Assembly (NCBI RefSeq): GCF_000981785.2
Contig: NZ_CP011304.1
Coordinates: 2,940,001 to 2,972,000, forward strand
Reading direction: 5' to 3'
Source of the DNA: Microcystis aeruginosa NIES-2549
Lineage (GTDB): Bacteria > Cyanobacteriota > Cyanobacteriia > Cyanobacteriales > Microcystaceae
DNA length: 32,000 bases
The notes under the pieces were generated by a model, which was not told the DNA's origin, did not search any database, and worked only from the letters and a program-made list of their open reading frames with translations. Made by a program: the position numbers and the translations under genes. This document shows positions 6,008 through 32,000 of the stretch, one piece after another. Position 1 is the first letter of the stretch, and each line of letters opens with the position of its first letter.

Positions 6008-6358
6008 TTGGTGACGTTTTCTTCTGGAGATGTGGTGACAGTTGATTTTCCCGGTGTGACAGGAATTAAGCGCCGTCCTGCTGTGGTTTTGTCATCAGAG
6101 ACTTACCACTCTCTTCGACCTGATGTAATAGTTGGACTGATCACAACTCAGTCAAAAGTTCTAGGAATTACTGATTATGCGCTTCAGGATTGGGTCTCGG
6201 CCGGGTTACGGGTCGCTTCGATATTTCGTTGTTTTATCGTAACTTTGCCACCATCTGCAAATTTAGCTGTGATTGGACATTTATCAGAGCGTGACTGGCA
6301 GGGAATCAAGGCTCGTGTTAGAATTTCCCTCGCAAGTTTAGATGAAACAAAACCATAG
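6008..6358 (+). CDS. PemK/MazF-family toxin (type II toxin-antitoxin endoribonuclease fold)
   Basis: The N-terminus ..GDVVTVDFPGVTGIKRRPAVVLSS....DVIVGLITTQ.. is the classic PemK/MazF SH3-like barrel signature. The start is probably GTG at 6011, with the SD-like ggagggg at 5995-6001; TTG at 6008 is the alternative. Confidence 0.75.
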   Translation: MVTFSSGDVVTVDFPGVTGIKRRPAVVLSSETYHSLRPDVIVGLITTQSKVLGITDYALQDWVSAGLRVASIFRCFIVTLPPSANLAVIGHLSERDWQGIKARVRISLASLDETKP

Positions 6359-13063: not shown

Positions 13064-14017
13064 CTATATATTACTATACCATTCTTCGGGAATTTGAGCG
13101 ACTTTTTCTTGGCCAGTAGGCTGATGAATAGGTTTTCCTAAAGGACGAATTTTGAGATTTCCTTGCAAATAAGCGGCGATTCTTTCCCTGGCAATTTTCA
13201 CATATTCTGCTTCTTTTTCACTCCCCATCACTCGACGATTGTGCATAATACTAGCAATCAGAGAAGTTCCAACCCCGGCAAAAGGATCAAAAACCCAATC
13301 CCCCTCATTTGTCAAGGCTAAAACACATCTTTCTACTAATTCGATTGGATATTGACAAGGATGGATAGTTTTCTCTGGATGATTAGATTTAACGTTAGGA
13401 ATATCCCATAGTAACTCATCCCATTCTTGTGCTAAAAACTCCCAAACATCGCTGGGATTTTTCCCTAAAGGATTACCAGAGGGTTTACCGATATTTTTAC
13501 CTTTAAAATGGCGCTTACCAGGGTATTTAGCGGGGATTCTCACCGGATCAAGATTAAAGATATATTTATCGGTTTTTGTCAACCATAAAATAGTTTCATA
13601 TCTGCCAGAAAATCTTTTAGAGGTATGTAATCCATGGCCAAAATGCCAGACAATTCTATTTCTTAAAAAGAAACCCATTTGTTTAAATAGCTGATAATAA
13701 AAAATATCTAAAGGATAAACTTCTCCCTCTTGAACGAAATTTCCCACCTGCCAGCAAATACTGCCATTATCTTGCAAGATTCTAGGGAATTCTCGCATAA
13801 TTTTGGTTTGGGTTTCCAGATAAGTATCCAAAGAGATTTTTTTTTCGTAGTCTTTTCCTAAATTGTAGGGAGGAGAAGTAATAATCAAGCTCACAGAATT
13901 ATCTGGTATAGTCTTGATAAAATTATTGGTATCTCCTTGATAAAGAATTATTTCGGCATCAGGTTGATAAAAGTCTCGCACTGATTTTGATTGAGAAAAT
14001 AAGGGCAATTGATTCAT
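13064..14017 (-). CDS. site-specific DNA methyltransferase, N6_N4_Mtase family, beta-class (SPPY: N4-cytosine or N6-adenine)
   Basis: 317 aa. The catalytic motif IV, LIITSPPYNLGKDY, is near the N-terminus. The AdoMet motif I, VFDPFAGVGTSLIAS, is near the C-terminus, giving the beta-class order IV-TRD-I. No adjacent endonuclease ORF is present. Confidence 0.85.
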   Translation of the reverse strand: MNQLPLFSQSKSVRDFYQPDAEIILYQGDTNNFIKTIPDNSVSLIITSPPYNLGKDYEKKISLDTYLETQTKIMREFPRILQDNGSICWQVGNFVQEGEVYPLDIFYYQLFKQMGFFLRNRIVWHFGHGLHTSKRFSGRYETILWLTKTDKYIFNLDPVRIPAKYPGKRHFKGKNIGKPSGNPLGKNPSDVWEFLAQEWDELLWDIPNVKSNHPEKTIHPCQYPIELVERCVLALTNEGDWVFDPFAGVGTSLIASIMHNRRVMGSEKEAEYVKIARERIAAYLQGNLKIRPLGKPIHQPTGQEKVAQIPEEWYSNI

Positions 14018-19447: not shown

Positions 19448-21472
19448 TTAATCTGTCTGTTGATCGCCGTCAAGTAAAGCTTGAAGAAAAGGTTCAAGAC
19501 TTTTAGGACGATAATCGGAAAAAGCCTTTAATCGTTTTACCACACTGTGATGAACAGTGACAACTTTGGCATTGAAATATCGCCATTGCTCACCTCCCAA
19601 GGCCGACAATCCTTTAACAGTATTATCGAACTTGATGGTCGGGTCTAGTTTAATTGGGAATTCCTCAAATTCAGAGGTGGTTGAGTCAAACTCTAATCCC
19701 AATTTTTTGGCTTGATTAATCATCCATTGTAACGGGTAATCGGAAAGTCCTTGATATTCTTTTTTGCCACCACCTAGACAGGTATGTTCACCCACAAATA
19801 AAACTTCTTTGACAACTTGTTCGGGATTTTCTGGATTGGCTTTTATCGGAGTGGAAGGGAAGTTTTTCCGTTTTTCATCAATGGCAACAGCATGAAAAGC
19901 ATTCTGGATAATCGGACTTAATTTTGTGTTACTAAATTCATATTTTTTATGATAAAACTTAGCCAGGGGAAACCAAGGAGTTAAATCAGGAATACCAAAA
20001 TTGCCAACTGTATCCCAACAACCTAACATCTTAACTGGAATACGATCTTGAAAATCTTCCTTTTCTGTCTCAATTTTTTTAGCATTAGCGGCACGGAATT
20101 GTTGAGCTTTGGCACTATCGGAACTAACGGTGTGGTCTCGATATAGTTGATAAGCTAGGGGAATTTCTTTAATCTTAGAGCGTTTTAGGATTCCACATTT
20201 ATCGATAAAACTAGCCAAACAACGAACGATATATGCGCCTCGACTAAAACCTAACAAATAAATTTCATCCTCGGTTGTGGGATTGTAGTTAAGGACAAGA
20301 AAACGATAGGCATCTTGAATCATTCGATCAAGGCCCCAGCCAAAAGTTTCATTCCCTAAACTTTTAATAAATTCGTTATCTTCGGGGGTGCCAGAACCTG
20401 ACAAAAAGACGATTTGTGGGGTTTGATCCTCGGCAATATACTTAATAGATTCGGCGAATTTAACCACATTGGTGGGGTAAGCACTGGTAGAGTCTTCCCA
20501 AGAACCATCACAGCAAATAATTAACCGTTTTTTCTGGTTTGAATAAGTGAGGATATCCGGTTCAGAAATTGCAGTTTCAGTAATCTCCTCAATTTCATTT
20601 TTGGGAAGAGCAGCTTCTTCAGGGATTATAATTGATTCTGGATTCTCTTCCTGGGAAGGTTCTTGATTTTCAGCTTGAACAGCCTGTTCAACCACTTCGG
20701 TTTCTTCCAGGGAATTAAAAATTGCGTTGACCATTGTTATCCTTCTGGCATTCTTTCTAGCTTTACTGCTAGTCTGAATTTTTGATTTAGGGATCGAGGT
20801 CGGTTTAGAGGGAAGACTATCTAGTTGCCAGGTTGTCCCATAAAGAATACCATGATTGCTATAACTTGTTTGATCCTCGGCACTGCCATTGAGTGATAAA
20901 TAAGTAACTAAGCCAAGGTCATCAACCCGGGGAGATTGATACATCGCTTTTTGGATTTCTTCTTGGCTACGCGCTTGATTCCAAAGAGAAAGTTCTGCAA
21001 GACAACCTTGCCAATAATGGGAGAGATTAACAGAGGCTCCCAAGATGATTTTTTCAACCCCCGTTAAGGCACGGTTATGACCGTTGCCACGATGCCAAAT
21101 GATACCATTGCGATAGATCAGCATTCGGCCCGTGGTCGCATTTTTGACAAAAGCCCAATGAGTCCAATTATTATAATCTTTAAGCTTGACTTTTTTTTCA
21201 ATTCGATCGAAACCTTCTTCATTACCCGCATCCCAAAAAATCGCAGGTTTAACGGAATCGCCCCAGGGCAAGGTAATATGTAGAACGCGGTTATTTTCCT
21301 GATTAACAGCTTCTAAAAGAGTGGTTTCTGTAGCTAAATTATTTTCCCCTTTTGCCCAAAATGTAATGGTAATACTCTGATCGATGTCAAGAAATCCGTG
21401 GGATAAATCAATATGATCATCAATGCCATTAAATTTTAGTACAGAGCGTTGTTCAGCCATTGGTTTTGTCAT
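19448..21472 (-). CDS. LamG/concanavalin-A-like lectin domain fused to a DUF2235 (T6SS Tle1-like) alpha/beta-hydrolase domain
   Basis: 674 aa. The N-terminal roughly 215 aa (..LKFNGIDDHIDL....ITITFWAK....WTHWAFV....IYRNG....LGAS......WQGCLAELSLWN.) fit the Laminin_G_3 pattern. An acidic E/Q/P/S-rich linker follows. The C-terminal domain carries the three DUF2235 hallmarks: RLIICCDGSW, the nucleophile elbow LLGFSRGAYIV, and GCWDTVGNFG. Confidence 0.8.
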   Translation of the reverse strand: MTKPMAEQRSVLKFNGIDDHIDLSHGFLDIDQSITITFWAKGENNLATETTLLEAVNQENNRVLHITLPWGDSVKPAIFWDAGNEEGFDRIEKKVKLKDYNNWTHWAFVKNATTGRMLIYRNGIIWHRGNGHNRALTGVEKIILGASVNLSHYWQGCLAELSLWNQARSQEEIQKAMYQSPRVDDLGLVTYLSLNGSAEDQTSYSNHGILYGTTWQLDSLPSKPTSIPKSKIQTSSKARKNARRITMVNAIFNSLEETEVVEQAVQAENQEPSQEENPESIIIPEEAALPKNEIEEITETAISEPDILTYSNQKKRLIICCDGSWEDSTSAYPTNVVKFAESIKYIAEDQTPQIVFLSGSGTPEDNEFIKSLGNETFGWGLDRMIQDAYRFLVLNYNPTTEDEIYLLGFSRGAYIVRCLASFIDKCGILKRSKIKEIPLAYQLYRDHTVSSDSAKAQQFRAANAKKIETEKEDFQDRIPVKMLGCWDTVGNFGIPDLTPWFPLAKFYHKKYEFSNTKLSPIIQNAFHAVAIDEKRKNFPSTPIKANPENPEQVVKEVLFVGEHTCLGGGKKEYQGLSDYPLQWMINQAKKLGLEFDSTTSEFEEFPIKLDPTIKFDNTVKGLSALGGEQWRYFNAKVVTVHHSVVKRLKAFSDYRPKSLEPFLQALLDGDQQTD

Positions 21473-21825: not shown

Positions 21826-22995
21826 TTATTGTAACTCTGACCAAATTCCGCGGCATCGCTCTACAATTAGTCCCTGAAAAATTAATTGGGTTGCGGGATG
21901 AATCTCTACTTTATACAGAGCAAAAAGACCTGTTGGACTATTTAGATTCAACTCCCTTCGCGTTAGAGATAAAGCTTTTGTTCGGTGTATTTCCACCGCT
22001 TTTAGTAAGCCTGGATAACTAATATTACGCAGGGACAATTGACCATTTTTTGTGAGATAAATAGCATCATTCTGCAAGAGATATTCCAAGCTGATCAAAC
22101 TAGCGTGGACATCCACATCTTTTTCTAAACCCCCTAAACGGTGAGCATCTAAACCAAAGCGAATGCAGAAATTAACAGCGACTAATTTTCCCGCTTCTTC
22201 GGCAGGTAAAGCACAATCGGCAAATTCAAAGCCTAAACTATCTGAGCGCCACTCCTCGACTCCGGCATAGGTATAGTTTTGAAACAGTTTATTTTTGAGT
22301 TTCAAGTCAAATCCCAACCCACTAGCATGACCCGCTTCATGGAATTGGGTATCGAGATGACGATAGCGTTCACCATTAATTTGATCCTCTAGGGGTCCTA
22401 ATAGTAAATCGGCCGTTTCTGGCTCAAAAATTTTTCGGATACATTCGTAGCTAGAGCCAGAAAAGCGTCTTTTTTGCTCACTGGCATTATTTAAAGCTGG
22501 CCCTTGAACACTATTGGGAAAAGTCCACCTATGGGGAACGATAAAAGCCTCCCCCTTTTCACCTTTAATCGTGCCACAACTGGCAATTTCAGTAAAGGAT
22601 AAATTTCTGGGAATCGGTTGTCTTAGACTGCCAAATTTTTCACGAGTTAAGCTTTCTAGTTGTTCGATAGAAGGTTGACTATTTTGGTGAATTTTTCCGT
22701 AAATCGCACTCAAAGTGAGTTGTCGTTCTCCCTGACGATTGATGCGATAGGGAGCAATCATCAGAAAATAACCATTTTTGCCGATAAAATTCAGATTAAT
22801 GAAATCTTCTGATAAAATGCTCCAGTCGTTGGTTTCTAAAGCCTCTGCTGTTTTCCACAGCCACTGAGCCGGAATTTCACAGCTATCTGCTTCCTGTTGA
22901 CGCAGTTTTTTCGCCGCAATCGCAATTTTATTTTGTTCGATATCTTGGACGATTTCTTGGAAGAACTGTTGTTGATTGACCAGAGTTTGATTCAT
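21826..22995 (-). CDS. hypothetical protein with zinc-metallopeptidase-like HExxH and downstream EExR motifs
   Basis: 389 aa. ..DTQFHEAGHASGLG.. is followed about 25 aa later by ..GVEEWRSDS... This pattern is reminiscent of the HExx(x)H / EExR(A/S)(E/D) motif pair of M49 (DPP III-like) peptidases. The family assignment is inference only. Confidence 0.45.
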   Translation of the reverse strand: MNQTLVNQQQFFQEIVQDIEQNKIAIAAKKLRQQEADSCEIPAQWLWKTAEALETNDWSILSEDFINLNFIGKNGYFLMIAPYRINRQGERQLTLSAIYGKIHQNSQPSIEQLESLTREKFGSLRQPIPRNLSFTEIASCGTIKGEKGEAFIVPHRWTFPNSVQGPALNNASEQKRRFSGSSYECIRKIFEPETADLLLGPLEDQINGERYRHLDTQFHEAGHASGLGFDLKLKNKLFQNYTYAGVEEWRSDSLGFEFADCALPAEEAGKLVAVNFCIRFGLDAHRLGGLEKDVDVHASLISLEYLLQNDAIYLTKNGQLSLRNISYPGLLKAVEIHRTKALSLTRRELNLNSPTGLFALYKVEIHPATQLIFQGLIVERCRGIWSELQ

Positions 22996-23223: not shown

Positions 23224-25125
23224 TTAAGATTGTTGTCGTTGGCGATTCGGGGGGGGTTCCCCGGCAGAATTGATTTTAGGATTGACCTCGGTTTCCTGAT
23301 TCGCTAAATCTTCGAGCCTATCTTGAGAATTATCGACAGAAATATTAATAATTTCTTTCACTTTTTGTCGGCGATATTCCTCCACTGTAAGCAGTTGCCA
23401 ATGGGAATTACTAGAGAGTTCTAAAACCCATTGATGATAGTTAAAGAGACTTTCACGATGTCCGACACTAATAAAAGTTGTGTGAGTTTTCTGCAATTGC
23501 CGATATAAATTTTCCTCATTGTTTAAGTCCAAAGCACTTGTGGCTTCATCGAGGATAGTAAAACTGGGACGGGTAATTAAGACCCTGGCAAAAGCCAAAC
23601 GTTGTTGTTCTCCCAGGGACAAAATGTTTTCCCAAGGCTCTTCTGTATCAAAGCTATCGACTCGATTTAGTAAATTTTGGAGATTGACTTCTTGCAAAAC
23701 TTCCCTTAATTTTATCTCATTGGTTTCTTGATTGCGATTGGGATAAAGTAACTGTTCTCGCAAGGTTCCTAATATTATGTAGGGACGTTGGGGCAGAAAC
23801 AATACTTCTTCTAGGGGGGGACGCACTAATCGGCCGGTTCCTGCATTCCATAAACCGGCGATAGCGCGTAGCAAAGAACTTTTACCCCGACCACTCGGAC
23901 CGACAATTAATAAACCTTGTCCAGGCTGAACAGAAAGGGAGAGGTTTTCGACAATTACCTGTTCATAATCGGGAGTTTGCAAGGTGACATCTTCAAAGGA
24001 AAATTGGGTTTCTTCGATAGTTGTAATCGTGCTTAAATTTTCCGGTTGTTTAATGACTTCTTCTAAGGCTTGGGAAAATTGCGATAGACGTTCAACATAA
24101 CTGCTAAATTGTGCCGAAGTGCCAAATTCACTAATTAATTCCGCCAGCGCCGTAGCAAACAAATTAGCCGCTAAACAGGCTTGCCCGACCTGTCCGAAAC
24201 TAATGCCCTCACTATTGATATACAAGGGACCCAAAATGACAAAAGTAAATACTTGAATTGCCGCCTGATAGCCTCGACTAAAAATTTCTGTGCCTCTCTC
24301 CCAATCAATTTTACGTTTAGCGCTGTCTAAGAGTTTATTAAATCGCCGCTGAATAATATTTAATTCCTGATTTTCTCCCTCAAAGAAAGCGATCGACTCC
24401 GCATGATTACGAATATGAGTTAGAGCATAATTATAGTTAGCCTTAAGTTCTAATTCTTCTTGAGTAATTTTATTTAAAGCTTGGTTAAAATAGATAGCAA
24501 TGACGTTACCGAGAATTGTCCAAACGACTAAAATAATGGCGACAGAGGAAGAAATTGACCAGAGAATCACTAAAAAAGTGATCATATCTAGGACATTTTC
24601 TAGGGCAACTGCAAAAAAGGAGAGAGCTTTACTGGTAATCGGCTCAATTTCCTGGGATAAACGCTGATCTGGGTTGTCGATATCGGATTTAAAATTAATT
24701 CTGTAATAGGCGCGATTATGCAAATATTTGTTGAGAATCCAGTCGTTGAGCCAAGCATACCAATCCAGGGCGATTCTTTTCCTGAGAAATTTAAGCAAGC
24801 CAACCAAAAGGGTGACAAAGAGCAGTCCAACCGCAAAAACTACCAAAGTTTTGACAAATTTATCAAAATCACTTTTTTCAAGAATGACATCAACTAAGTA
24901 ATTACTAACAAAGCTATTGAAGGCATTTAATCCTACAACTCCTAGTATTACCCCGATTAGTAGGATGAGCATTGCCCAAGCTTGAATCACATCGGCAAAA
25001 GTCCTTCCCCCCGACTCGGTAGGATACCAATAGGGAGCAGCGATCAGCTTGACACTGTGCCAAAATTTGCTGACATCGGAGATAATATTAGTCGTCGATC
25101 GATCTTGAGGGACTTTGGCGGACAT
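23224..25125 (-). CDS. ABC transporter, fused permease/ATPase (ABCD / SbmA-BacA-like membrane domain type), likely peptide exporter
   Basis: 633 aa. The N-terminal half is multi-TM. The C-terminal NBD has Walker A GPSGRGKSSLLRAIAGLW, signature LSLGEQQRLAFARV and Walker B FTILDEATSALD. It is transcribed divergently from the sulfotransferase/NRPS genes. Confidence 0.85.
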   Translation of the reverse strand: MSAKVPQDRSTTNIISDVSKFWHSVKLIAAPYWYPTESGGRTFADVIQAWAMLILLIGVILGVVGLNAFNSFVSNYLVDVILEKSDFDKFVKTLVVFAVGLLFVTLLVGLLKFLRKRIALDWYAWLNDWILNKYLHNRAYYRINFKSDIDNPDQRLSQEIEPITSKALSFFAVALENVLDMITFLVILWSISSSVAIILVVWTILGNVIAIYFNQALNKITQEELELKANYNYALTHIRNHAESIAFFEGENQELNIIQRRFNKLLDSAKRKIDWERGTEIFSRGYQAAIQVFTFVILGPLYINSEGISFGQVGQACLAANLFATALAELISEFGTSAQFSSYVERLSQFSQALEEVIKQPENLSTITTIEETQFSFEDVTLQTPDYEQVIVENLSLSVQPGQGLLIVGPSGRGKSSLLRAIAGLWNAGTGRLVRPPLEEVLFLPQRPYIILGTLREQLLYPNRNQETNEIKLREVLQEVNLQNLLNRVDSFDTEEPWENILSLGEQQRLAFARVLITRPSFTILDEATSALDLNNEENLYRQLQKTHTTFISVGHRESLFNYHQWVLELSSNSHWQLLTVEEYRRQKVKEIINISVDNSQDRLEDLANQETEVNPKINSAGEPPPNRQRQQS

Positions 25126-25406
25126 ATAGCATTTATATTTGAGTTGTGGACATTTTGCCGGAATGATTTTAGATTTTGGCTGGATTGGCGGAGTTGATCC
25201 TGAGGTTGTCTGTGTGGGCTAGTTTCAGGAGAAACCCTCCCCTGTGTAGAAGGCAATTGGCGAAAATATAATGCTCCCCGACAATTTTAAGGTTATTGTG
25301 TTTGAGTTGTGTTAACATACCCCAGTCGCTTTATCTGTCAGTATAAAGAAATGGCTTTCTCATCGCCCTGCTAAGCTATTTGTAATTTAAATTGCCTGTT
25401 CAGATG

Positions 25407-25436
25407 AGGCAAGAGGCAAGAGGCAACAGGCAACAG
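25407..25436. repeat. heptanucleotide tandem repeat AGGCAA(G/C) x4
   Basis: The units read aggcaag aggcaag aggcaac aggcaac ag. The same heptamer family occurs inside MITE copy 3 (17017-17044). Confidence 0.85.
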
Positions 25437-25458
25437 TAAAGGGATTGGGGGAGATTCG

Positions 25459-25500
25459 GCTAATCTAAGAATAAGCGATTTAAATACATCTTAGCTTACT
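25459..25500 (+). repeat. 42-bp dispersed repeat, copy 2
   Basis: See 10336-10377 for the alignment. Confidence 0.7.
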
Positions 25501-25765
25501 GCTTTTTTAACCCTCGTTATCTTACTACAAGTAACCGTTGTTTGGATAGCTAGAGCTAGTGAGCGCTTCTCAGACTACCACATATTACCGAATTTCGTTG
25601 ACCATGACAAATTGTTTTCTGTGACAAGTTTTTTTTCTCTGTGATCTGTGATATGATTTCAGGGGACGAGGGTCGGCTATGCTCCTCCTGTGCTGCTTGC
25701 TACCCTTAGCTTCTTGTTTTGCTTTTCTCAACTTTGTCTTTCTGTCGCCTTTAACAGACTAACTC

Positions 25766-26419
25766 ATGCCAGTAATGCCAGCCTTTGCTAATCAGAAAAT
25801 AGAGTTTACAGATATACTATATATTCACTATTATGTCGGTGAACAAGTTAAACTTTTGCGTCAACGCTATTTTGGCAATGTTGTCTTTATTCATATTAAT
25901 AAGACAGGTGGCAGAAGTATTGAGAAATCTCTAAATTTACCTTTTGAGCATAAAACTGCTTTAGAAAAAATTGACGAAATGGGCAAACAAAGGTGGGAGC
26001 GAGTATATAAATTTACAAGTGTTAGAAATCCTTGGGACAAAGTTATTTCTCACTTTCATTATCGTGTTGAAACCAATCAGACAAATTTAAGGACAAAACC
26101 AATAAAATTTAAAGAGTGGGTTAAGTTGACCTACGGGAATAAAGATCCTTTCTATTATGACAGCCCTAAAATGTTTATGCCTCAGTTGGATTGGATTACA
26201 GATCATGAAGGTAAAATTTTAGTAGATTTTATTTGCCGTTTTGAAAATCTTAATAACGACTTCAGTGTCCTATGTGAAAAACTTGGTAAAAATGCGACTT
26301 TACCTCATATTAATTCCTCAAAACATGGCAACTACCGTGAATATTACGATGATGATACTATTGAGATTATCGCAAAATCCTTTAGCAGAGATATAGAGAA
26401 ATTTGGCTATAAATTTTGA
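25766..26419 (+). CDS. free-standing sulfotransferase (PAPS-dependent, family-2-like)
   Basis: 217 aa. The 5'-phosphosulfate-binding loop is VVFIHINKTGGRSIEKSL, and a 3'-phosphate-binding-like motif, FTSVRNPWDKVISHFHY, is present. Confidence 0.75.
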   Translation: MPVMPAFANQKIEFTDILYIHYYVGEQVKLLRQRYFGNVVFIHINKTGGRSIEKSLNLPFEHKTALEKIDEMGKQRWERVYKFTSVRNPWDKVISHFHYRVETNQTNLRTKPIKFKEWVKLTYGNKDPFYYDSPKMFMPQLDWITDHEGKILVDFICRFENLNNDFSVLCEKLGKNATLPHINSSKHGNYREYYDDDTIEIIAKSFSRDIEKFGYKF

Positions 26420-26497
26420 TATATTGGATTAACTAGGAAAACCGTTTGAAGATAAAATCAGATAGACTTCGTATTGTCGCTGCCAACAGAGTAACCC

Positions 26498-28100
26498 ATG
26501 CCAATAATGAAAGCCCTTGCTAATCATAAAATCGTTATTACAGCTACATTTACCAGTGAACCAGTGGAGGATTCCCTGTCATATTGGCTCAAAAAAATAG
26601 GATTTCCTTATTCAATAGAATTTGCTCAGTACAATCAAGTCTTTCAAGAATTACTCAATCCTGCTAGTCTTTTAGCGACTAATCAAAATGGGGTTAATGT
26701 GATTCTGGTTAGGTTTGAAGACTGGGAAGGAAGTAAAAACAAGGCCGAATTGACCTTAGAGCAAACCCTTAGAGACTTTGGTAATGCCTTGAAAACGGCG
26801 ACAATGCGCTCACCAATTCCCTATTTAGTCTGTGTCTGTCCCCCCTCTCCAACCCATGATACAACGTTCAATAGTTTACATGAGAAATTACAAGAACAAT
26901 TAGACCGTGATCTCCAGAATATCCCTAGCATATATCTAATTAAAAGTCAAGCATTACTCAAGACTTATCCTGTACAAGAGTATTATGATCCTTATGGAGA
27001 AGAACTAGGAAATATTCCCTATACCTTGGCTTTTTTTGCGGCTTTGGGGACAATATTAGCGCGAAAAATCTTAGCCTTGATAAACTCTCCTTACAAAGTG
27101 ATTGTCCTTGACTGCGACAATACATTATGGCATGGGGTTTGTGGAGAAGATGGAGTTAAGGGAGTGAAAATTGATGCTCCATTTCGAGCTTTACAAGAAT
27201 TTATCATCGCACAGCAAGCAGCAGGAAAGTTAATCTGTTTATGTAGTAAGAATCAACCAGAGGATGTCTTTGCCGTTTTTGAAGGACATCCCGATATGTT
27301 GCTTAAGGAAAATCATTTAGTAAATTGGCGCATTAACTGGCAAGAAAAATCTCAGAATTTGCAGTCCTTAGCGGAGGAATTACAACTAGGATTAGATAGC
27401 TTTATTTTTATTGATGATAATCCGGTTGAGTGTGCGGAAGTTAGAGCAAACTGTCCAGAAGTTTTGACATTACAACTTCCTGAAAATTGCGATCATATTC
27501 CAAAATTTTTAGAACATATTTGGGCTTTTGATCAACTCAAAACCACTCAAGAAGACCGACAAAGAACTAATCTTTATCAACAGAATATTCAGCGTCAGAA
27601 TTTACAAAAATATTCCCTTTCTTTTGAGGATTTTCTCGGCCAACTCAACTTAGAAATAGAGATTTCCCCGATGCAAACGGAGGAATTGACGCGAGTTGCC
27701 CAACTTACTCAACGTACTAACCAATTTAACTTAACAACTATCCGACGCTCAGAATCCCAAATTCAAAAACTTTGTGGTCTAGGGGAATTAGACTGTCGAG
27801 TGGTTAAAGTAAAAGATCGTTTTGGGGATTATGGTTTAGTTGGTTTGCTATTATTTACTGCTCAAGAAAAATCCCTGATTGTCGATACATTTTTGCTCAG
27901 TTGTCGAGTATTGGGTCGCGGTGTAGAACATAAAATGTTAGCTTATTTGGGTACAATTGCTCAACAAAAAGGGTTAGAACAACTCAAACTTATTTATAAA
28001 CCTACCCCCAAAAATCAACCAATTTGGGATTTTTTAAGGACTGTTGGTCAAGAATTTCAGCAGGAAAAAGAGGAGAGATATTTATTTAATTTTCCTAGTT
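26498..28100 (+). other. NRPS domain: FkbH-like (HAD-phosphatase subfamily IIIC plus GNAT-like tail) glyceryl-loading domain
   Basis: The HAD motif I, KVIVLDCDNTLWHGVCGEDG, sits near aa 201. Further matches are ..LCSKNQPEDV.., ..FIFIDDNPVECAEV.. and then the GNAT-like ..VKVKDRFGDYGLVGLLLF....VDTFLLSCRVLGRGVEHKML... Confidence 0.7.
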
Positions 28101-31100
28101 ATATTGCGTCTAAAGTTAATTTCACTCCTCTCGGTGATGAACATAAAATAGCTACTAAAAATTCATCTAAAACAGTTAAGAGAATTATCCGATCAGAGTT
28201 TTTTGAAGAGATTGGAAATAACTTATATGATGCTCAACTAATTCTGCGAAAAATTAATTCTCAAAACCAGCGTCAACGGACTCAGTTAGACACAGAATTT
28301 ATTGCTTCTCGTACTCCTCTAGAAAAAGTGATTGCTTCTCTATTCGCAGAAGTCCTTAAACTTGACAGAGTGGGGAGAGATGACGATTTTTTTGAGCTTG
28401 GTGGTGATTCAATTCGGGGAGCAATTCTAATTAATAAACTGCAAGCACAACTAAACGAAATTATTCACTTTATTGTTTTATTTGACAGAAAGACTGTTAA
28501 GGAATTAGCCAGATATATAGAGGAACATTATCCAAAAGCAGTTACCAAAATACTAGGTAAAGAAAGAACCGAAATTAACAACCTACCACAAGAGCGCATT
28601 GCTGAAGCTAAAGTGTTACAAATGCGCTCCCTAATTCCTGCTCTTAGCAGCCCAATAGATGATGACAATAGCAAAAATCCACCAGCTATATTTATCCTTT
28701 CTCCTTATCGTAGCGGTTCCACCTTACTCCGCGTTATCTTAGGAGGAAATCCACAGCTTTTTGCACCTCCAGAATTGGAACTACTAGGGTTTAATACCCT
28801 TGGGGAAAGAAAGGCGAAATTTTCTGGCCGTTACAACTTCTGGATGGAAGGAACAATTCGCACCATCATGGAAATTAAGGGGTGTAATGCTGAAAAAGCG
28901 ATCGCAATTATGGAAGAATTAGAAGAGAAAAATCTGACTAGCAAACAGTTTTACCGTCTTCTACAGGGATGGTTGGGAGATAAAATCTTAGTGGATAAAA
29001 CTCCATCCTATTCTCTAGATTTAGAAACTCTAAAACGAGCAGAAATAAATTTTGATAACCCTCTATATATTCATCTGGTGCGTCATCCTTTAGGAATGAT
29101 TAACTCTTATGAAGAAGCTAAAATTGAGCAAATATTTCCCTATCAAAATCCTTTCAATAATCGAGAACTTGCCGAACTCGTTTGGCTGATTAGCCATCAA
29201 AATATCTGCGAATTTTTACAACAAGTTTCTCCCCAACGTCAGTATCAAGTTAAATTTGAAGACATCGTTAAGCAGCCACAAAAAACCCTAGAGAGTTTAT
29301 GTCAGTTTTTAGGAGTAGAATTTAATCCTGATATGCTGCAACCCTACCAAGAGAAAAAGCAGCGCATGACTGACGGTATTTATGCCGAATCTAGAATGCT
29401 AGGAGATGTAAAATTTCATCAACATCAAAGCATTAATCCTAACACCATTGAGCAATGGAAAGATTACTACAACACTGACTTTTTAGGTAATGTAACTTGG
29501 CAACTAGCAGAGTCTTTTGGCTATCCGAAAAATAACAATAATATCCCCCAAATTAGTCGAGAAAATCCCGCCGAACCTCAGACTTTTCCAGTTTCTTTTG
29601 CTCAACAGAGACTATGGATTTTAGCGCAATTAGAACCAGACAGCCCTTTTTACAATATGTTTAAAGCGGTTCATCTTCAGGGACGTATAAATATAGAAAT
29701 TTTAGAACGCAGCCTCAACGAAATTGTCCATCGTCACGAAATTCTACGCACTAATTTTAAGGAAGTAACAGAAACTCCAGTACAGGTAATTGCTCCCCGC
29801 GCAACTCTGAAAATTTCGGTTGTGGACCTACAAGGATTATCAGGACAAGAACAGTCACAACAATTACAACTTTTAGCAACTGAGGATCAATTACAACCTT
29901 TTGACCTGACTACGGGAATATTGCTAAGAGTCACCTTAGTGCAACTTAAATCAGAATCATCAGCTTTGTTATTGACCATGCACCACATTATTAGTGATGG
30001 TTGGTCAATGGGAGTATTGCTCAAAGAATTGTCAAGTTTATATCAAGGATTTTTGCTTGATGATGGTTCTGTTCTCTCAGAATTGCCGATTCAATATGCC
30101 GATTTTACAATTTGGCAACGGCAATGGTTACAAGGAGAAACTCAAGGTTTTATCACCATCCAAAACCAAATTAATTACTGGAAACAACAGTTAGCCGCAG
30201 CCCCTCCTTTGCTAGAATTACCTACGGACAGACCCCGTCCCTCTGTGCAAACTTTCCGAGGTGGATGTTTTTCCTTCCAGTTAGATGCCAAACTGACAGC
30301 ATCTCTAAAAGAACTCAGCCACAAATCAGCAACTACCCTATTTATGACGTTGATGGCGGCTTATGTTACTCTATTATTCCGCTATAGTGGTCAAGATGAT
30401 ATTCTGGTAGGAACACCGATTGCTAATCGCAACTATCAAGAATTAGAAGGATTAATTGGCTTTTTTGTCAATACCCTAGTGATGCGAACTCGCTTAGAAG
30501 GTAATCCCAGTTTTGAAGAATTATTAAGACAAGTGCGTTCTGTTTGTACGAATGCTTATGCTAACCAAGACGTTCCTTTTGAGCAGATTATCGAAACTTT
30601 GCAAATAGAGCGCAGTCTTAGTCACAGTCCTTTGTTTCAGGTGATGTTTGTTTTACAAAATGTGGCAATGGAGGAATTAGAAAATCCTGAGTTAAAAATA
30701 TCGCATCTACCTCTAGATAATGTTAACGCCAAGTTTGATATCACCTTACAAATGTGGGAAACAAATACAGAAGAAGGCAACTCTCTCCAAGGATTTTGGC
30801 AATATAATACAGATTTATTTGATCAAAACACAATTGCTCGCATGACTGGTCATTTTCAGACATTATTAGAGACAATTGTTACTAATCCGCAAGAGTCGGT
30901 AGGAACCTTGCCATTACTAACAAAAAAAGAGCGTTATCAACTGTTATTAGAATGGAATAATACTGATACACCATACAGTTATACTCAGTGTATTCATCAG
31001 TTATTTGAAGAGCAGGTAAAACGGACTCCTGATGCTGTAGCTGTAGTATTTAAAGGTGAAAAATTAACCTATAATGAGTTAAATCATCGAGCTAATCAGT

Positions 31101-32000
31101 TAGCGCATTATTTGCAATCTTTGGGAGTAAAACCTGATCAATTAGTGGGGATTTGTCTTGAGCGTTCTTTAGAGATGATTGTGGGGTTATTGGGGATATT
31201 AAAAGCGGGTGCTGCTTATGTTCCTCTTGACCCAGAATATCCGATTGAACGGTTAAGCTTCATGTTAGAAGATGCTCAATTATCAGTGCTGTTAACGCAA
31301 CAAAAGCTAGGAGAAACTCTACCTCAACATCAAGCGCAGATTATTTATTTAGATACCGACTGGGAAAAAATTGCCGAAAACAGCCATTCCAATCTAGAAA
31401 ACAGGGTCACTCCAGATAACTTAGCTTATGTTATTTACACTTCCGGTTCCACAGGTAAACCGAAAGGGGTGTTAGTCAATCACTCCAATGTCGTGCGATT
31501 ATTTGCCGCTACAGATGCTTGGTATAATTTTAGTAGTCAAGATGTCTGGACTCTATTTCATTCCTACGCTTTTGACTTTTCGGTGTGGGAAATGTGGGGA
31601 GCTTTGTTATATGGTGGACGCTTGGTAGTTGTCCCCTACTTAATAACTCGTTCCCCCGAAGCATTTTATCAGCTATTATGTCAAGAAAAAGTAACAATTC
31701 TTAATCAAACTCCTACCGCTTTCCGTCAGTTAATTCAAGCTGAAGAATCCTTAAAAGGAAGTTTTCCCCCCTTATCAAGGGGGGTTAGGGGGGATCGTTC
31801 ATCGACAACAGATAACGATTTAAGCTTACGTTTAGTTATTTTTGGAGGAGAAGCTTTAGAAATTAACAGCTTACAACCTTGGTTTCAGCGCCATGGCGAC
31901 CAATGCCCCCAATTAGTTAATATGTACGGAATTACAGAAACTACCGTTCATGTCACCTATCGACCATTAAGTATGACCGACTTGGATAGTACAGCTAGTG
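26498..32000 (+). CDS. non-ribosomal peptide synthetase, N-terminal >=1834 aa (3' end beyond the window): FkbH-like / PCP / sulfotransferase / C / A...
   Basis: My own translation in the frame of ATG 26498 is uninterrupted to nt 32000. The ORF track shows no closed ORF here except one 66-aa out-of-frame ORF. I checked frame continuity at the PCP (28379), the C-domain His motif (29981) and the A3 motif (31421). Domain motifs are listed in the sub-features. Confidence 0.9.
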   Translation, partial: MPIMKALANHKIVITATFTSEPVEDSLSYWLKKIGFPYSIEFAQYNQVFQELLNPASLLATNQNGVNVILVRFEDWEGSKNKAELTLEQTLRDFGNALKTATMRSPIPYLVCVCPPSPTHDTTFNSLHEKLQEQLDRDLQNIPSIYLIKSQALLKTYPVQEYYDPYGEELGNIPYTLAFFAALGTILARKILALINSPYKVIVLDCDNTLWHGVCGEDGVKGVKIDAPFRALQEFIIAQQAAGKLICLCSKNQPEDVFAVFEGHPDMLLKENHLVNWRINWQEKSQNLQSLAEELQLGLDSFIFIDDNPVECAEVRANCPEVLTLQLPENCDHIPKFLEHIWAFDQLKTTQEDRQRTNLYQQNIQRQNLQKYSLSFEDFLGQLNLEIEISPMQTEELTRVAQLTQRTNQFNLTTIRRSESQIQKLCGLGELDCRVVKVKDRFGDYGLVGLLLFTAQEKSLIVDTFLLSCRVLGRGVEHKMLAYLGTIAQQKGLEQLKLIYKPTPKNQPIWDFLRTVGQEFQQEKEERYLFNFPSYIASKVNFTPLGDEHKIATKNSSKTVKRIIRSEFFEEIGNNLYDAQLILRKINSQNQRQRTQLDTEFIASRTPLEKVIASLFAEVLKLDRVGRDDDFFELGGDSIRGAILINKLQAQLNEIIHFIVLFDRKTVKELARYIEEHYPKAVTKILGKERTEINNLPQERIAEAKVLQMRSLIPALSSPIDDDNSKNPPAIFILSPYRSGSTLLRVILGGNPQLFAPPELELLGFNTLGERKAKFSGRYNFWMEGTIRTIMEIKGCNAEKAIAIMEELEEKNLTSKQFYRLLQGWLGDKILVDKTPSYSLDLETLKRAEINFDNPLYIHLVRHPLGMINSYEEAKIEQIFPYQNPFNNRELAELVWLISHQNICEFLQQVSPQRQYQVKFEDIVKQPQKTLESLCQFLGVEFNPDMLQPYQEKKQRMTDGIYAESRMLGDVKFHQHQSINPNTIEQWKDYYNTDFLGNVTWQLAESFGYPKNNNNIPQISRENPAEPQTFPVSFAQQRLWILAQLEPDSPFYNMFKAVHLQGRINIEILERSLNEIVHRHEILRTNFKEVTETPVQVIAPRATLKISVVDLQGLSGQEQSQQLQLLATEDQLQPFDLTTGILLRVTLVQLKSESSALLLTMHHIISDGWSMGVLLKELSSLYQGFLLDDGSVLSELPIQYADFTIWQRQWLQGETQGFITIQNQINYWKQQLAAAPPLLELPTDRPRPSVQTFRGGCFSFQLDAKLTASLKELSHKSATTLFMTLMAAYVTLLFRYSGQDDILVGTPIANRNYQELEGLIGFFVNTLVMRTRLEGNPSFEELLRQVRSVCTNAYANQDVPFEQIIETLQIERSLSHSPLFQVMFVLQNVAMEELENPELKISHLPLDNVNAKFDITLQMWETNTEEGNSLQGFWQYNTDLFDQNTIARMTGHFQTLLETIVTNPQESVGTLPLLTKKERYQLLLEWNNTDTPYSYTQCIHQLFEEQVKRTPDAVAVVFKGEKLTYNELNHRANQLAHYLQSLGVKPDQLVGICLERSLEMIVGLLGILKAGAAYVPLDPEYPIERLSFMLEDAQLSVLLTQQKLGETLPQHQAQIIYLDTDWEKIAENSHSNLENRVTPDNLAYVIYTSGSTGKPKGVLVNHSNVVRLFAATDAWYNFSSQDVWTLFHSYAFDFSVWEMWGALLYGGRLVVVPYLITRSPEAFYQLLCQEKVTILNQTPTAFRQLIQAEESLKGSFPPLSRGVRGDRSSTTDNDLSLRLVIFGGEALEINSLQPWFQRHGDQCPQLVNMYGITETTVHVTYRPLSMTDLDSTAS
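28300..28530 (+). other. NRPS domain: peptidyl/acyl carrier protein
   Basis: ..TPLEKVIASLFAEVLKLDRVGRDDDFFELGGDSIRGAILINKL... The phosphopantetheine Ser codon is at 28409-28411. Confidence 0.85.
28675..29525 (+). other. NRPS domain: in-line sulfotransferase
   Basis: The PAPS 5'-phosphosulfate loop is PAIFILSPYRSGSTLLRVILGGNP. Further matches are ..KTPSYS.. and ..LVRHPLGMINS... The domain is about 280 aa and sits between the PCP and the C domain. Confidence 0.75.
29581..30962 (+). other. NRPS domain: condensation (C) domain
   Basis: C1 is FPVSFAQQRLWILAQLEPDSPFYNM. C3 is MHHIISDGWSMGVL (His motif at 29981-30001). Also present are ..YADFTIWQRQWLQGE.., ..IGFFVNTLVMR.. and ..NAKFDITLQMWE... Confidence 0.9.
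30963..32000 (+). other. NRPS domain: adenylation (A) domain, motifs A1-A5 visible, truncated by the window end
   Basis: A1 LTYNELNHRANQLA; A2 LKAGAAYVPLDPEYP; A3 LAYVIYTSGSTGKPKGV; A4 FDFSVWE; A5 NMYGITETTVH. The first three specificity-code positions read D-F-W. Confidence 0.9.
31768..31797. repeat. GC-rich hairpin repeat embedded in-frame in the A domain
   Basis: ccccttatcaaggggggttaggggggatcg matches 21600-21628. It is translated as ..FPPLSRGVRGDR.. between motifs A4 and A5. Confidence 0.75.

What the first reader, a model, noticed from the sequence alone, without database searches (positions are those of the whole stretch)
26498..32000. NRPS with an FkbH-like / PCP / in-line sulfotransferase loading region: predicted sulfated glyceryl starter unit
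Seen in sequence: one uninterrupted ORF of at least 1834 codons runs off the window edge. Its N-terminus is not a normal A or starter-C domain. It reads, in order:
- a HAD-type FkbH-like domain (VIVLDCDNTLWHG...);
- a carrier protein (FFELGGDSI);
- a PAPS-type sulfotransferase (ILSPYRSGSTLLR);
- a C domain (MHHIISDGWS);
- an A domain.

Established knowledge: FkbH-family domains convert a glycolytic C3 intermediate into glyceryl-S-carrier protein. From memory, a glyceric-acid-activating domain plus a sulfotransferase domain was reported at the N-terminus of the Planktothrix cyanopeptolin synthetase OciA. O-sulfated glyceric acid side chains are known in cyanopeptolin/micropeptin-type depsipeptides.

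Inference: this is the start of a BGC for a peptide N-capped with sulfoglycerate. The visible A-domain code positions (D-F-x-x-W from FDFSVWE) fit Thr-type codes. That would place the cap directly on the first residue, as in ring-Thr-capped cyanopeptolins. The remaining code residues and all later modules lie outside the window, so the product class is open and could be new.
Basis: partly seen in the sequence, partly recalled or inferred. Interest (0 to 1): 0.72.

Follow-up and report, generated by a model that had tools for sequence, protein, structure and literature searches.

The report
Sulfoglycerate-loading cyanopeptolin synthetase of Microcystis
This is the first gene of a Microcystis aeruginosa cyanopeptolin (protease-inhibitor peptide) assembly line; its unusual front end very probably loads a sulfated glyceric acid directly onto the ring threonine, which is a correct reading but a known kind of system.

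Summary
The ORF from 26498 to the window edge is open for 1834 codons and reads FkbH (TIGR01686, E 1e-93), carrier protein, CurM-type sulfotransferase (PF13469; PDB 4GBM, E 2e-67), C domain and A domain.

The window is Microcystis aeruginosa NIES-2549/NIES-2481. The ORF is AKE65336.1 (2132 aa), annotated only as a hypothetical protein. They read DFWNIGMVH, the threonine code, identical to OciA-A2.

Strains 99% identical over this gene show the rest:
- Gene 1 is complete at 2135 aa.
- A four-module, 4721-aa NRPS follows, carrying the Ahp signature DVENAGVVTK and an N-methyltransferase.
- McnE (C-A-PCP-TE) closes the line.
- McnF (ABC transporter) and McnG (DUF6014) lie upstream, inside the window.

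So the product class is not open. This is an mcn-type cyanopeptolin synthetase with the glycerate/sulfotransferase loading region described for Planktothrix oci in 2007. It differs from oci in three ways: no exocyclic amino-acid module, no O-methyltransferase domain in gene 1, and a second, stand-alone sulfotransferase.

Sulfoglycerate-capped cyanopeptolins S and SS are known from Microcystis blooms. I found no paper describing this Microcystis gene variant. Verdict: new member of a known kind, moderate interest.

The parts
26498..32000 (+). First NRPS gene of the mcn-type cyanopeptolin cluster (McnA variant; AKE65336.1 / MYAER_2996). It is cut by the window edge at codon 1834 of 2135. Architecture: FkbH-PCP-ST-C-A(Thr)-[PCP beyond the edge].
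   Evidence: Open frame. Domains. The window ORF from aa 4 is identical to the first 1831 residues of the 2132-aa NIES-2549 protein. The ortholog is complete at 2135 aa in L083/L089.
26498..27094 (+). N-terminal region of the FkbH-like unit (aa 1-199), in front of the TIGR01686 core.
   Evidence: It aligns along its length with all 15 FkbH-PCP-ST relatives. No Pfam domain matches it. No methyltransferase is inserted here, unlike the Nostoc and Symploca relatives, which carry an FkbM domain at aa ~150-345.
27095..28060 (+). FkbH core (aa 200-521): HAD motif D205-x-D207-x-T209 and conserved S468-C469-R470.
   Evidence: TIGR01686, 313.5 bits against a cut-off of 146.65. These residues are invariant in a 16-sequence alignment. 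The HAD part matches PDB 3SLR, E 8e-25.
28328..28519 (+). Carrier protein 1 (aa 611-674), with the phosphopantetheine serine in GGDS638.
   Evidence: PF00550, E 3.6e-13. S638 is invariant among relatives.
28667..29515 (+). In-line PAPS-type sulfotransferase domain (aa 724-1006), of the CurM/OLS type.
   Evidence: PF13469, 98.1 bits. PDB 4GBM CurM ST, E 2.2e-67, and 4GOX, E 2.3e-58, aligned end to end. The RSGSTLL loop and the PPEL motif are conserved.
29579..30946 (+). Condensation domain (aa 1028-1483) with an intact HHxxxDG motif (MHHIISDGWS).
   Evidence: PF00668, E 1e-114. Motif located at aa 1162.
31004..32000 (+). Adenylation domain (aa 1503 onward, cut at the edge). Its specificity code is DFWNIGMVH(K), which is threonine.
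   Evidence: PF00501, E 1.4e-84. The code was extracted by alignment to GrsA, and a self-check reproduced DAWTIAAICK. It is identical to OciA-A2 in PMC2533009 Table 1.
25766..26419 (+). Stand-alone sulfotransferase (217 aa, Sulfotransfer_2), 78 nt upstream of the NRPS on the same strand. Candidate second sulfation enzyme.
   Evidence: PF03567, 39.7 bits against a cut-off of 22. It has a HINKTGGRS motif and an RNPWDKVIS motif. It lies next to gene 1 in every Microcystis locus fetched. No terminator-like site on the + strand separates it from the NRPS.
23224..25125 (-). Divergently transcribed ABC transporter (McnF-like). It is 633 aa here and 689 aa in other strains.
   Evidence: ABC_membrane_2 plus ABC_tran. 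Exact match to AKE65334.1. A 53-bp insertion near its 5' end, relative to strain KW, explains the shorter ORF. oci and mcn also have a divergent ABC transporter (PMC2533009).
21826..22995 (-). McnG (DUF6014), a conserved companion of the transporter.
   Evidence: PF19477, E 2e-92. UniProt names the identical protein 'McnG protein'. The same ABC + DUF6014 pair precedes the FkbH-PCP-ST NRPS of a Crocosphaera MAG (L003).
31766..31796 (+). G/C-rich palindromic small repeat inserted in frame in the A domain (encodes PPLSRGVRGD).
   Evidence: Sequence. It occurs once in the window, with none expected by chance. Its 19-nt core recurs in gene 2 and in intergenic DNA of other Microcystis loci.

Best explanation
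The ORF is the first subunit of a six-module cyanopeptolin (Ahp-cyclodepsipeptide) synthetase of Microcystis aeruginosa. It is a variant of McnA in which the usual exocyclic amino-acid module is replaced by a glycerate-loading, sulfating starter unit.

Proposed steps:
1. The FkbH domain takes a phosphorylated C3 glycolytic intermediate (1,3-bisphosphoglycerate in characterised FkbH enzymes), removes the phosphate with its HAD half, and passes a glyceryl unit through a cysteine thioester to carrier protein 1.
2. The in-line CurM-type sulfotransferase uses PAPS to sulfate a hydroxyl of the tethered glycerate. Known products suggest the 3-OH.
3. The C domain joins sulfoglyceryl-S-PCP to threonine loaded by the A domain.
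4. A four-module NRPS follows: a variable residue, the Ahp precursor, an Ile/Val-type residue, and an N-methylated aromatic residue.
5. McnE adds a final Ile/Val-type residue. Its thioesterase closes the ring on the threonine hydroxyl.
6. The stand-alone sulfotransferase encoded just upstream may add a second sulfate.

Shown here: the domain identities and their order, the conserved catalytic motifs, the Thr code, the downstream module order and codes in near-identical strains, and the gene neighbourhood.

Inferred: the substrate of the FkbH domain, the site and timing of sulfation, retention of the sulfate in the product, the identity of residue 2, and the role of the second sulfotransferase.
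For: Domains and order.

Catalytic motifs:
- DxDxT, SCR and the carrier serine are invariant across 16 FkbH-PCP-ST proteins.
- The ST domain aligns end to end with CurM ST (4GBM), E 2e-67.

Thr code: DFWNIGMVH lies in the window and the closing K in the ortholog. This equals OciA-A2.

Downstream genes, in strains 99.2% identical in nucleotides over 25497-32000:
- Gene 1 is complete and overlaps a 4721-aa NRPS.
- Its A-domain codes are DAEGVGAIAK (OciB-A3 of NIES 205 is DAEGMGAIIK), DVENAGVVTK (identical to OciB-A4, the Ahp position), DAFFLGVFSK (OciB-A5 is DAFFLGVTFK, Ile) and DAWTIAGVCK with an N-methyltransferase (identical to OciB-A6).
- McnE, with a TubC-type docking domain then C-A-PCP-TE, follows.
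- In TF09 and DF17 the protein accessions of gene 1 and McnE are two apart, so there are three NRPS genes.

Flanks: McnF and McnG lie in the window.

Selection: pN/pS is 0.15 between strains, which fits purifying selection.

Precedents:
- The same loading logic is published for OciA, whose side chain is HO3SO-CH2-CH(OMe)-CO (PMC2533009).
- It is also published for DysB (PMC6520454) and for AerB/BslA (PMC10143770, PMC13122637).

Matching chemistry from Microcystis blooms:
- Glyceric acid linked directly to Thr, optionally sulfated (PMC6070996).
- Cyanopeptolins S and SS, with one and two sulfates, isolated from one bloom (PMC4413215).
- A disulfated glyceric acid in cyanopeptolin SS (PMC12116083).
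Against: - No step has been tested biochemically for this protein, and no metabolite data exist here for NIES-2549.
- The nearest solved relatives of the ST domain (CurM and OLS) install sulfate as a leaving group, not as a retained decoration.
- The downstream genes were read in other strains. For NIES-2549 itself their presence rests on the complete 2132-aa gene 1 and on accession spacing: AKE65336 is gene 1, and AKE65342 is the methyltransferase that lies beyond McnE in TF09.
- The code of residue 2 (DAEGVGAIAK) has no exact characterised match, so the precise compound cannot be named.
- I could not retrieve OciA itself, so sequence identity to the one characterised homologous loading region was not measured. 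The closest loading regions found, from Nostoc, Symploca and Crocosphaera, are 68-74% identical.
Confidence: 0.8

Rival explanations
1. The in-line sulfotransferase is an 'activating' enzyme, as in CurM. It would sulfate the glyceryl 3-OH only to make a leaving group. Elimination would then give a 2-hydroxyacryloyl/pyruvoyl-type cap, and the final peptide would carry no sulfate.
For: The only solved homologs are CurM ST and OLS ST (4GBM, 4GOX; E 2e-67 and 2e-58). From my own knowledge, those enzymes work in sulfate-leaving-group chemistry.
Against: - In CurM the ST works with an adjacent thioesterase at the end of the line. Here it sits in a loading module followed by a C domain.
- All three published FkbH-PCP-ST loading modules (OciA, DysB, AerB/BslA) are linked to products that keep the sulfate.
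- Sulfoglycerate-capped cyanopeptolins are known from Microcystis.
Confidence: 0.06
2. The cluster is a decaying or silent remnant. The loading region is intact by chance, and no sulfoglycerate peptide is made.
For: - One genome (CP086723, L085) shows gene 1 split into four ORFs.
- A metagenome contig (L002) holds a clearly decayed PCP-ST-C remnant.
- In TF09 the mcnD-like halogenase is split.
- In this window the transporter gene carries a 53-bp insertion at its 5' end.
Against: - Gene 1 is full length in NIES-2549 and in most of the 39 members of its 90% cluster, across many strains and MAGs.
- pN/pS is 0.15.
- All catalytic motifs are intact.
- The L085 breaks come with 13 gap openings in an otherwise 99% identical sequence, which looks like indel sequencing error.
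Confidence: 0.07
3. The gene starts an aeruginosin-family (suomilide, dysinosin or varlaxin-like) pathway rather than a cyanopeptolin pathway. Those are the other known users of FkbH-PCP-ST loading modules.
For: The loading region is most similar (71-74% in the best segment) to Nostoc and Symploca proteins of the OMT-FkbH-PCP-ST type. One of these, in Nostoc sp. C117, has the aeruginosin-like layout C-A-PCP-E with Rieske oxygenase and APS kinase genes nearby.
Against: - The first A domain is Thr-specific, not Ile/Leu, and has no E domain.
- The downstream modules carry the Ahp-position code, an N-methyltransferase and a TE.
- The flanks are McnF/McnG and McnE.
- No Choi/Abn genes appear in any of the Microcystis loci.
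Confidence: 0.02

Closest known systems
OciA and the oci cyanopeptolin cluster of Planktothrix agardhii NIVA-CYA 116 / NIES 205 (DQ837301, EU109504; Rounge et al. 2007/2008, PMC2533009)
   Same: - A 'GA' (glyceric acid loading) domain, T domain and sulfotransferase domain at the N-terminus of the first NRPS, followed by C.
- The same Thr code, DFWNIGMVHK.
- The same Ahp-position code, DVENAGVVTK.
- The same N-Me-aromatic code, DAWTIAGVCK, with an N-methyltransferase.
- A terminal TE.
- A divergent ABC transporter.
   Different: - oci has seven modules, with an Hty module (DLGFTGAVCK) between the loading region and the Thr module. Here the loading region feeds the Thr module directly, giving six modules.
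- The oci product carries 2-O-methyl-3-O-sulfoglycerate. Gene 1 here has no methyltransferase domain.
- oci has no stand-alone sulfotransferase gene.
- Sequence identity to OciA could not be measured, because OciA was not retrievable.
Classical Microcystis mcn cluster (NIVA-CYA 172/5, DQ075244; Tooming-Klunderud et al. 2007) and micropeptin clusters
   Same: - Same genus and same locus type, with McnE, McnF and McnG named as such in UniProt.
- An optional McnD halogenase sits between the large NRPS and McnE.
   Different: - The literature states that the sulfotransferase and GA domains are 'absent in mcn' (PMC2533009).
- The classical McnA carries an amino-acid module, and the side chain is an amino acid plus a fatty acid.
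- Here there are three NRPS genes, whereas the literature reports four for Microcystis (PMC2515870).
AerB/BslA (suomilide, varlaxin, banyaside-like) and DysB (dysinosin) loading modules
   Same: FkbH-PCP-ST followed by C-A. Published proposals have glycerate loaded from 1,3-bisphosphoglycerate and sulfated on the carrier protein. The Nostoc relatives are 71-74% identical in the best segment.
   Different: - Those proteins carry an FkbM-type O-methyltransferase in front, an Ile/Leu-type A domain and an E domain.
- They feed a linear aeruginosin-type tetrapeptide.
- None of this is found here.
CurM / OLS sulfotransferase domains (PDB 4GBM, 4GOX)
   Same: Same fold family (PF13469). E 2e-67 over the whole domain, with the PAPS-loop and PPEL motifs conserved. 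Both act on a carrier-protein-bound hydroxyl.
   Different: From my own knowledge, in CurM/OLS the sulfate is a leaving group for decarboxylative chain release next to a TE. Here the domain sits in a starter module and the sulfate is expected to stay.
Cyanopeptolins S and SS (Jakobi et al. 1995, 1996), compounds from Microcystis blooms
   Same: They are Ahp-depsipeptides capped with mono- or disulfated glyceric acid. This matches the predicted cap and the presence of two sulfotransferases.
   Different: - No gene cluster has been assigned to them in the literature I could search.
- The residue-2 code here resembles an Hty/Leu-type pocket, so the product of this strain may be a congener rather than S or SS themselves.

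Membership tests
FkbH-like glyceryl-loading domain (TIGR01686, HAD-IIIC) | Profile match above the curated cut-off over the whole model | tested here: met
   313.5 bits against a cut-off of 146.65, model positions 4-322 of 323, aa 200-521.
FkbH-like glyceryl-loading domain (TIGR01686, HAD-IIIC) | HAD motif I, DxDx(T/V), for phosphoryl transfer | tested here: met
   D205-C-D207-N-T209. All three residues are invariant in the 16-sequence alignment.
FkbH-like glyceryl-loading domain (TIGR01686, HAD-IIIC) | Conserved cysteine in the C-terminal half that carries the glyceryl thioester (role known from OzmB, from memory) | tested here: inconclusive
   S468-C469-R470 is invariant among relatives. No characterised FkbH sequence was available here to confirm that this is the catalytic cysteine.
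FkbH-like glyceryl-loading domain (TIGR01686, HAD-IIIC) | Dedicated carrier protein with a phosphopantetheine serine directly downstream | tested here: met
   PF00550 at aa 611-674, with GGDS638 invariant.
FkbH-like glyceryl-loading domain (TIGR01686, HAD-IIIC) | Converts 1,3-bisphosphoglycerate to glyceryl-S-carrier protein | not testable with these tools
   Needs an enzyme assay with intact-protein MS.
CurM-type PAPS sulfotransferase domain (PF13469) | Profile and structure-family match over the full domain | tested here: met
   PF13469, 98.1 bits against a cut-off of 27. 4GBM, E 2.2e-67, with aa 724-1006 aligned to chain residues 28-305.
CurM-type PAPS sulfotransferase domain (PF13469) | PAPS phosphate-binding loop and the conserved acidic residue of the PPEL motif | tested here: met
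   SPYRSGSTLL aligns with SSPRSGSTLL of CurM, and APPELELL with SPPELHLL. R738, G740, T742, P757, P758 and E759 are invariant among relatives. The catalytic role of the Glu is from memory.
CurM-type PAPS sulfotransferase domain (PF13469) | Sulfates a carrier-bound hydroxyl; regiochemistry | not testable with these tools
   Inferred from published products of OciA, DysB and AerB.
Cyanopeptolin (Ahp-cyclodepsipeptide) synthetase, oci/mcn/apd type | Thr module whose side-chain OH closes the ring; code DFWNIGMVHK | tested here: met
   Nine of ten residues are in the window and the tenth is in the ortholog. Identical to OciA-A2.
Cyanopeptolin (Ahp-cyclodepsipeptide) synthetase, oci/mcn/apd type | Ahp-precursor module two positions after Thr, with signature DVENAGVVTK | tested here: met
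   Second module of gene 2 in L089. Read in strain FBCC-A68, which is 99.2% identical over gene 1, not in the window itself.
Cyanopeptolin (Ahp-cyclodepsipeptide) synthetase, oci/mcn/apd type | N-methyltransferase in the penultimate module and a terminal thioesterase | tested here: met
   Methyltransf_12/25 inside the last module of gene 2, and PF00975 at the end of McnE in L093. Read in TF09, which carries a gene 1 of the same 90% cluster.
Cyanopeptolin (Ahp-cyclodepsipeptide) synthetase, oci/mcn/apd type | Divergent ABC transporter (McnF/OciD) beside the first NRPS gene | tested here: met
   23224-25125 on the minus strand. Cluster layout per PMC2533009.
Cyanopeptolin (Ahp-cyclodepsipeptide) synthetase, oci/mcn/apd type | The strain produces an Ahp-containing depsipeptide | not testable with these tools
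   No metabolite data for NIES-2549 were found in the searchable library.
oci-type architecture specifically (seven modules) | Exocyclic amino-acid module between the GA-T-S region and the Thr module | tested here: not met
   The C domain after the ST is followed directly by the Thr A domain. So this works like oci but is not the same architecture.

The most novel reading that the evidence does not exclude
This Microcystis mcn variant would be the so far unassigned genetic basis of the sulfoglycerate-capped cyanopeptolins S and SS. The stand-alone Sulfotransfer_2 enzyme at 25766-26419 would put a second sulfate on the free 2-OH of the glycerate cap. That hydroxyl is free because gene 1 has no O-methyltransferase domain. 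The result would be a 2,3-disulfoglycerate cap made by one in-line and one trans-acting sulfotransferase. Isolation of S and SS from one bloom would then reflect incomplete trans sulfation.
Probability: 0.35. Interest if true: 0.45.

Novelty: new member of a known kind. Interest (0 to 1): 0.35.

Why it matters
- Cyanopeptolins are among the most abundant protease inhibitors released by Microcystis blooms. Their side chain strongly affects which proteases they inhibit.
- Public records annotate this gene only as 'hypothetical protein' or 'non-ribosomal peptide synthetase'. The adjacent sulfotransferase is mislabelled 'pullulanase PulA'.
- The 2008 literature says GA and sulfotransferase domains are absent from mcn.
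- Recognising that many Microcystis strains carry a GA-T-S-loaded, six-module mcn variant gives a gene marker for sulfated cyanopeptolin chemotypes. There are 39 sequences in the 90% cluster of gene 1.
- It also gives a concrete candidate cluster for cyanopeptolins S and SS.
- It offers a compact three-domain unit (FkbH-PCP-ST) plus a trans-acting sulfotransferase that could be tested in vitro.
- It does not reveal a new kind of chemistry.

Tried and rejected
Searches that fell short:
- The search for homologous proteins with the loading region returned nothing closer than 68% and no Microcystis protein. Every hit in both searches was under about 1750 aa, so long NRPSs appear to be outside that index.
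- One further search failed internally, and the third returned only sub-1750-aa proteins.
It returned neither the source genome nor Planktothrix OciA.

Failed attempts to fetch the NIES-2549 contig itself:
- Its 2132-aa protein is not on record as a gene call.
- Its 633-aa transporter is not on record either.

As a result, the downstream genes were read in KW, FBCC-A68, TF09 and LEGE 00239.

Relatives that turned out not to be informative:
- P0004 (54% identical, Microcoleaceae MAG) was checked as a possible oci stand-in. It is an unrelated small FkbH-PCP-ST-C plus C-A-PCP-TE cluster.
- The P0001 contig ends right after the ST domain.
- P0016 is a decayed remnant.

Genes excluded from the cluster:
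- The methyltransferase and SDR genes downstream of McnE were considered as tailoring enzymes, for example for 2-O-methylation.
- They sit in roughly ten-fold larger clusters than gene 1 (440 and 378 members against 39). The SDR and the neighbouring 159-aa gene also lie beside McnE in NIES-843.
- One source names the methyltransferase an MPBQ/MSBQ methyltransferase. I therefore treat both genes as flanking genes.

Other negative results:
- The stand-alone sulfotransferase has no meaningful sequence match in the PDB; the few weak hits (best E 0.005, PTAC18) are not sulfotransferases.
- The aeruginosin-type reading was rejected on downstream gene content.
- Eight literature searches found no description of FkbH or ST domains in a Microcystis mcn cluster. 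Subscription-journal papers are not covered, so prior description cannot be excluded.

Full report
**1. Observation**

The frame starting at 26498 on the plus strand is open for 1834 codons to the end of the window.
- FkbH (TIGR01686), aa 200-521, 313.5 bits against a curated cut-off of 146.65
- PP-binding, aa 611-674
- Sulfotransfer_3, aa 729-943, 98.1 bits against a cut-off of 27, with a weaker Sulfotransfer_1 match at aa 848-990
- Condensation, aa 1028-1483
- AMP-binding, aa 1503-1827

The quoted motifs are at aa 205 (DCDNT), 635 (GGDSI), 735 (SPYRSGST) and 1162 (HHIISDG).

**2. Source and completeness**

Exact-sequence look-ups place the window in Microcystis aeruginosa NIES-2549 (also NIES-2481). 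These proteins are identical to window ORFs:
- gnd, AKE65328.1
- the 633-aa ABC transporter, AKE65334.1
- the small sulfotransferase, AKE65335.1

The NRPS is AKE65336.1, 'hypothetical protein MYAER_2996', 2132 aa. Its first 1831 residues equal the window ORF from aa 4. The gene is therefore complete in the source genome. NCBI simply uses the ATG at 26507 instead of 26498.

Loci from strains KW and FBCC-A68 and from genome CP086723 are 99.0-99.2% identical in nucleotides over 25497-32000. In KW and FBCC-A68 the gene is 2132-2135 aa (depending on the start codon called), FkbH-PCP-ST-C-A-PCP. Between the window and KW, pN/pS is 0.15. The 90% cluster of this protein has 39 members from many Microcystis strains and MAGs.

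**3. A-domain specificity**

I aligned the A domains to GrsA-PheA. My reference fragment reproduced the published code DAWTIAAICK as a self-check. The gene 1 A domain reads DFWNIGMVHK. Nine of those positions are inside the window and read DFWNIGMVH. This is the canonical Thr code and is identical to OciA-A2 of Planktothrix (PMC2533009 Table 1).

**4. The rest of the assembly line**

In FBCC-A68 (L089), gene 1 overlaps the start of a 4721-aa NRPS. Its first three A domains compare with oci as follows:

| Gene 2 A domain | Code | oci counterpart |
|---|---|---|
| 1 | DAEGVGAIAK | OciB-A3 of NIES 205, DAEGMGAIIK |
| 2 | DVENAGVVTK | identical to OciB-A4, the Ahp position |
| 3 | DAFFLGVFSK | OciB-A5, DAFFLGVTFK, Ile |

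M. flos-aquae TF09 carries a gene 1 of the same 90% cluster, and its gene 1 and McnE accessions are two apart. Its locus (L093) shows the tail of the cluster:
- The tail of gene 2 has DAWTIAGVCK (identical to OciB-A6) with an embedded N-methyltransferase.
- A split McnD-type halogenase follows.
- Then comes McnE: docking domain, C, A (DAFFLGVFSK), PCP and TE.

Upstream, inside the window, are the divergent ABC transporter and a DUF6014 protein that UniProt names McnG.

The window therefore holds the left end of an mcn-type cyanopeptolin cluster with six amino-acid modules. For NIES-2549 itself the downstream genes were not read. The methyltransferase that lies beyond McnE in TF09 is AKE65342 in NIES-2549, six accessions after gene 1. 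That spacing fits the same gene order.

**5. Mechanism**

- The FkbH core has the HAD DxDxT motif and a conserved SCR cysteine. Both are invariant across 16 FkbH-PCP-ST proteins.
- The ST domain aligns end to end with CurM ST (4GBM, E 2e-67) and OLS ST (4GOX). The PAPS loop and the PPEL motif are conserved.
- Published proposals for the same tridomain have glycerate loaded by FkbH, probably from 1,3-bisphosphoglycerate, and sulfated on the carrier protein. These cover OciA, DysB and AerB/BslA.
- By analogy, sulfoglyceryl-S-PCP is condensed with Thr, the chain is extended by five more residues, and the TE cyclises onto the Thr hydroxyl.
- These steps are inferred. Only the domain identities, motifs, order and codes are shown.

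**6. What differs from the known systems**

Compared with oci:
- The exocyclic Hty module is absent, so the cap goes straight onto the ring Thr.
- Gene 1 has no O-methyltransferase domain. The Nostoc and Symploca relatives carry an FkbM domain.
- A 217-aa Sulfotransfer_2 gene sits 78 nt upstream on the same strand. It has recognisable PAPS-binding motifs and is adjacent to gene 1 in every Microcystis locus fetched.

A Crocosphaera MAG has the same ABC-DUF6014-NRPS layout without the methyltransferase. However, it has a non-Thr first A domain and no extra sulfotransferase.

The 2008 literature explicitly says sulfotransferase and GA domains are absent from mcn. I found no later paper in the searchable library that describes them in Microcystis.

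**7. Fit to known chemistry**

- Cyanopeptolins with glyceric acid linked directly to Thr, optionally sulfated, are documented (PMC6070996).
- Cyanopeptolin S (one sulfate) and SS (disulfated glyceric acid) come from Microcystis blooms and were isolated from the same bloom material (PMC4413215, PMC12116083).
- Two sulfotransferases and a free 2-OH make a disulfated cap a natural prediction. This is only a hypothesis.
- The residue-2 pocket resembles an Hty/Leu-type pocket, so the strain's product may be a congener of S and SS.

**8. Rivals**

- A leaving-group role for the ST, as in CurM, is unlikely because there is no partner TE and because of the three retained-sulfate precedents.
- A dead cluster is unlikely given intact ORFs, intact motifs and purifying selection. 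The fragmented copy in CP086723 carries 13 gap openings in otherwise 99% identical DNA, which suggests sequencing error.
- An aeruginosin-type pathway is excluded by the downstream genes.

**9. Verdict**

The system is a member of a known kind: a cyanopeptolin synthetase with FkbH-PCP-ST loading. It occurs in a genus where this loading region has apparently not been described. It shows a modest architectural change and carries an extra sulfotransferase worth testing. Interest is moderate.

Noticed in passing
window 31766-31796: A G/C-rich palindromic small repeat (CCCCCCTTATCAAGGGGGGTTAGGGGGGATC) lies in frame inside the Thr A domain. It encodes PPLSRGVRGD, between specificity positions 278 and 299. 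Its 19-nt core recurs inside gene 2 and in intergenic DNA of other Microcystis loci.
   Followed up: partly
window ~25195-25247 and ~25375-25497: Relative to strain KW, this strain has a 53-bp insertion inside the 5' end of the mcnF-like ABC transporter gene, so the ORF is 633 aa instead of 689. It also has about 125 bp of extra DNA in the intergenic region shared by the transporter and the sulfotransferase/NRPS operon.
   Followed up: partly
window 25766-26419: In NIES-2549 (AKE65335.1) the stand-alone sulfotransferase is annotated 'Type II secretory pathway, pullulanase PulA'. Given the Pfam match and the PAPS-binding motifs, this is a misannotation.
   Followed up: yes
window 21826-22995; L003 8732-9901: DUF6014 (McnG) is paired with the ABC transporter next to FkbH-PCP-ST NRPSs in both Microcystis and a Crocosphaera MAG. 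This conserved association has no assigned function.
   Followed up: partly
L093 7987-10004: In M. flos-aquae TF09 the McnD-type halogenase between gene 2 and mcnE, which starts with a TubC-type docking domain, is split into ORFs of 224 and 390 aa. This is a possible pseudogene or assembly error. LEGE 00239 (L091) has no halogenase at this position.
   Followed up: no
L091 versus L089 (gene 2): Gene 2 is mosaic between strains. In LEGE 00239 the third module carries a Thr code (DFWNIGMVHK), whereas FBCC-A68 has DAFFLGVFSK. The FBCC-A68 segment is 94% identical in nucleotides to the McnE A domain, which suggests A-domain exchange by recombination.
   Followed up: partly
L085 10734-17133: In genome CP086723, gene 1 is broken into four ORFs. 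There are 13 gap openings against the window in otherwise 99% identical DNA, so these are most likely indel sequencing errors.
   Followed up: partly
L090 15179-15337; L091 and L093 equivalent: A 52-aa ORF of the PF12559 (Inhibitor_I10) family lies about 0.9 kb downstream of mcnE on the opposite strand. From my own knowledge this family includes microviridin-type protease-inhibitor precursors.
   Followed up: no
L002 10001-12752: A metagenome contig with the same upstream neighbours as L001 (homocitrate-synthase-like gene and O-methyltransferase) carries a decayed version. It has a PCP, a weak ST match, a C domain, and then only a 98-aa A-domain fragment.
   Followed up: no
L011 10001-12898; L099: The FkbH-PCP-ST tridomain also occurs outside peptide-protease-inhibitor clusters. 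One is in the purple sulfur bacterium Thiohalocapsa sp. PB-PSB1 (41% identity over residues 14-1009). Another is in a small Microcoleaceae cluster with only one C-A-PCP-TE partner and a halogenase.
   Followed up: no
window 5732-6358, 13064-14017, 19448-21472: Unrelated neighbours in the window: a MazF-like toxin with a small upstream ORF, an N4/N6 DNA methylase, and a Laminin-G plus Tle1-like lipase protein next to McnG.
   Followed up: no
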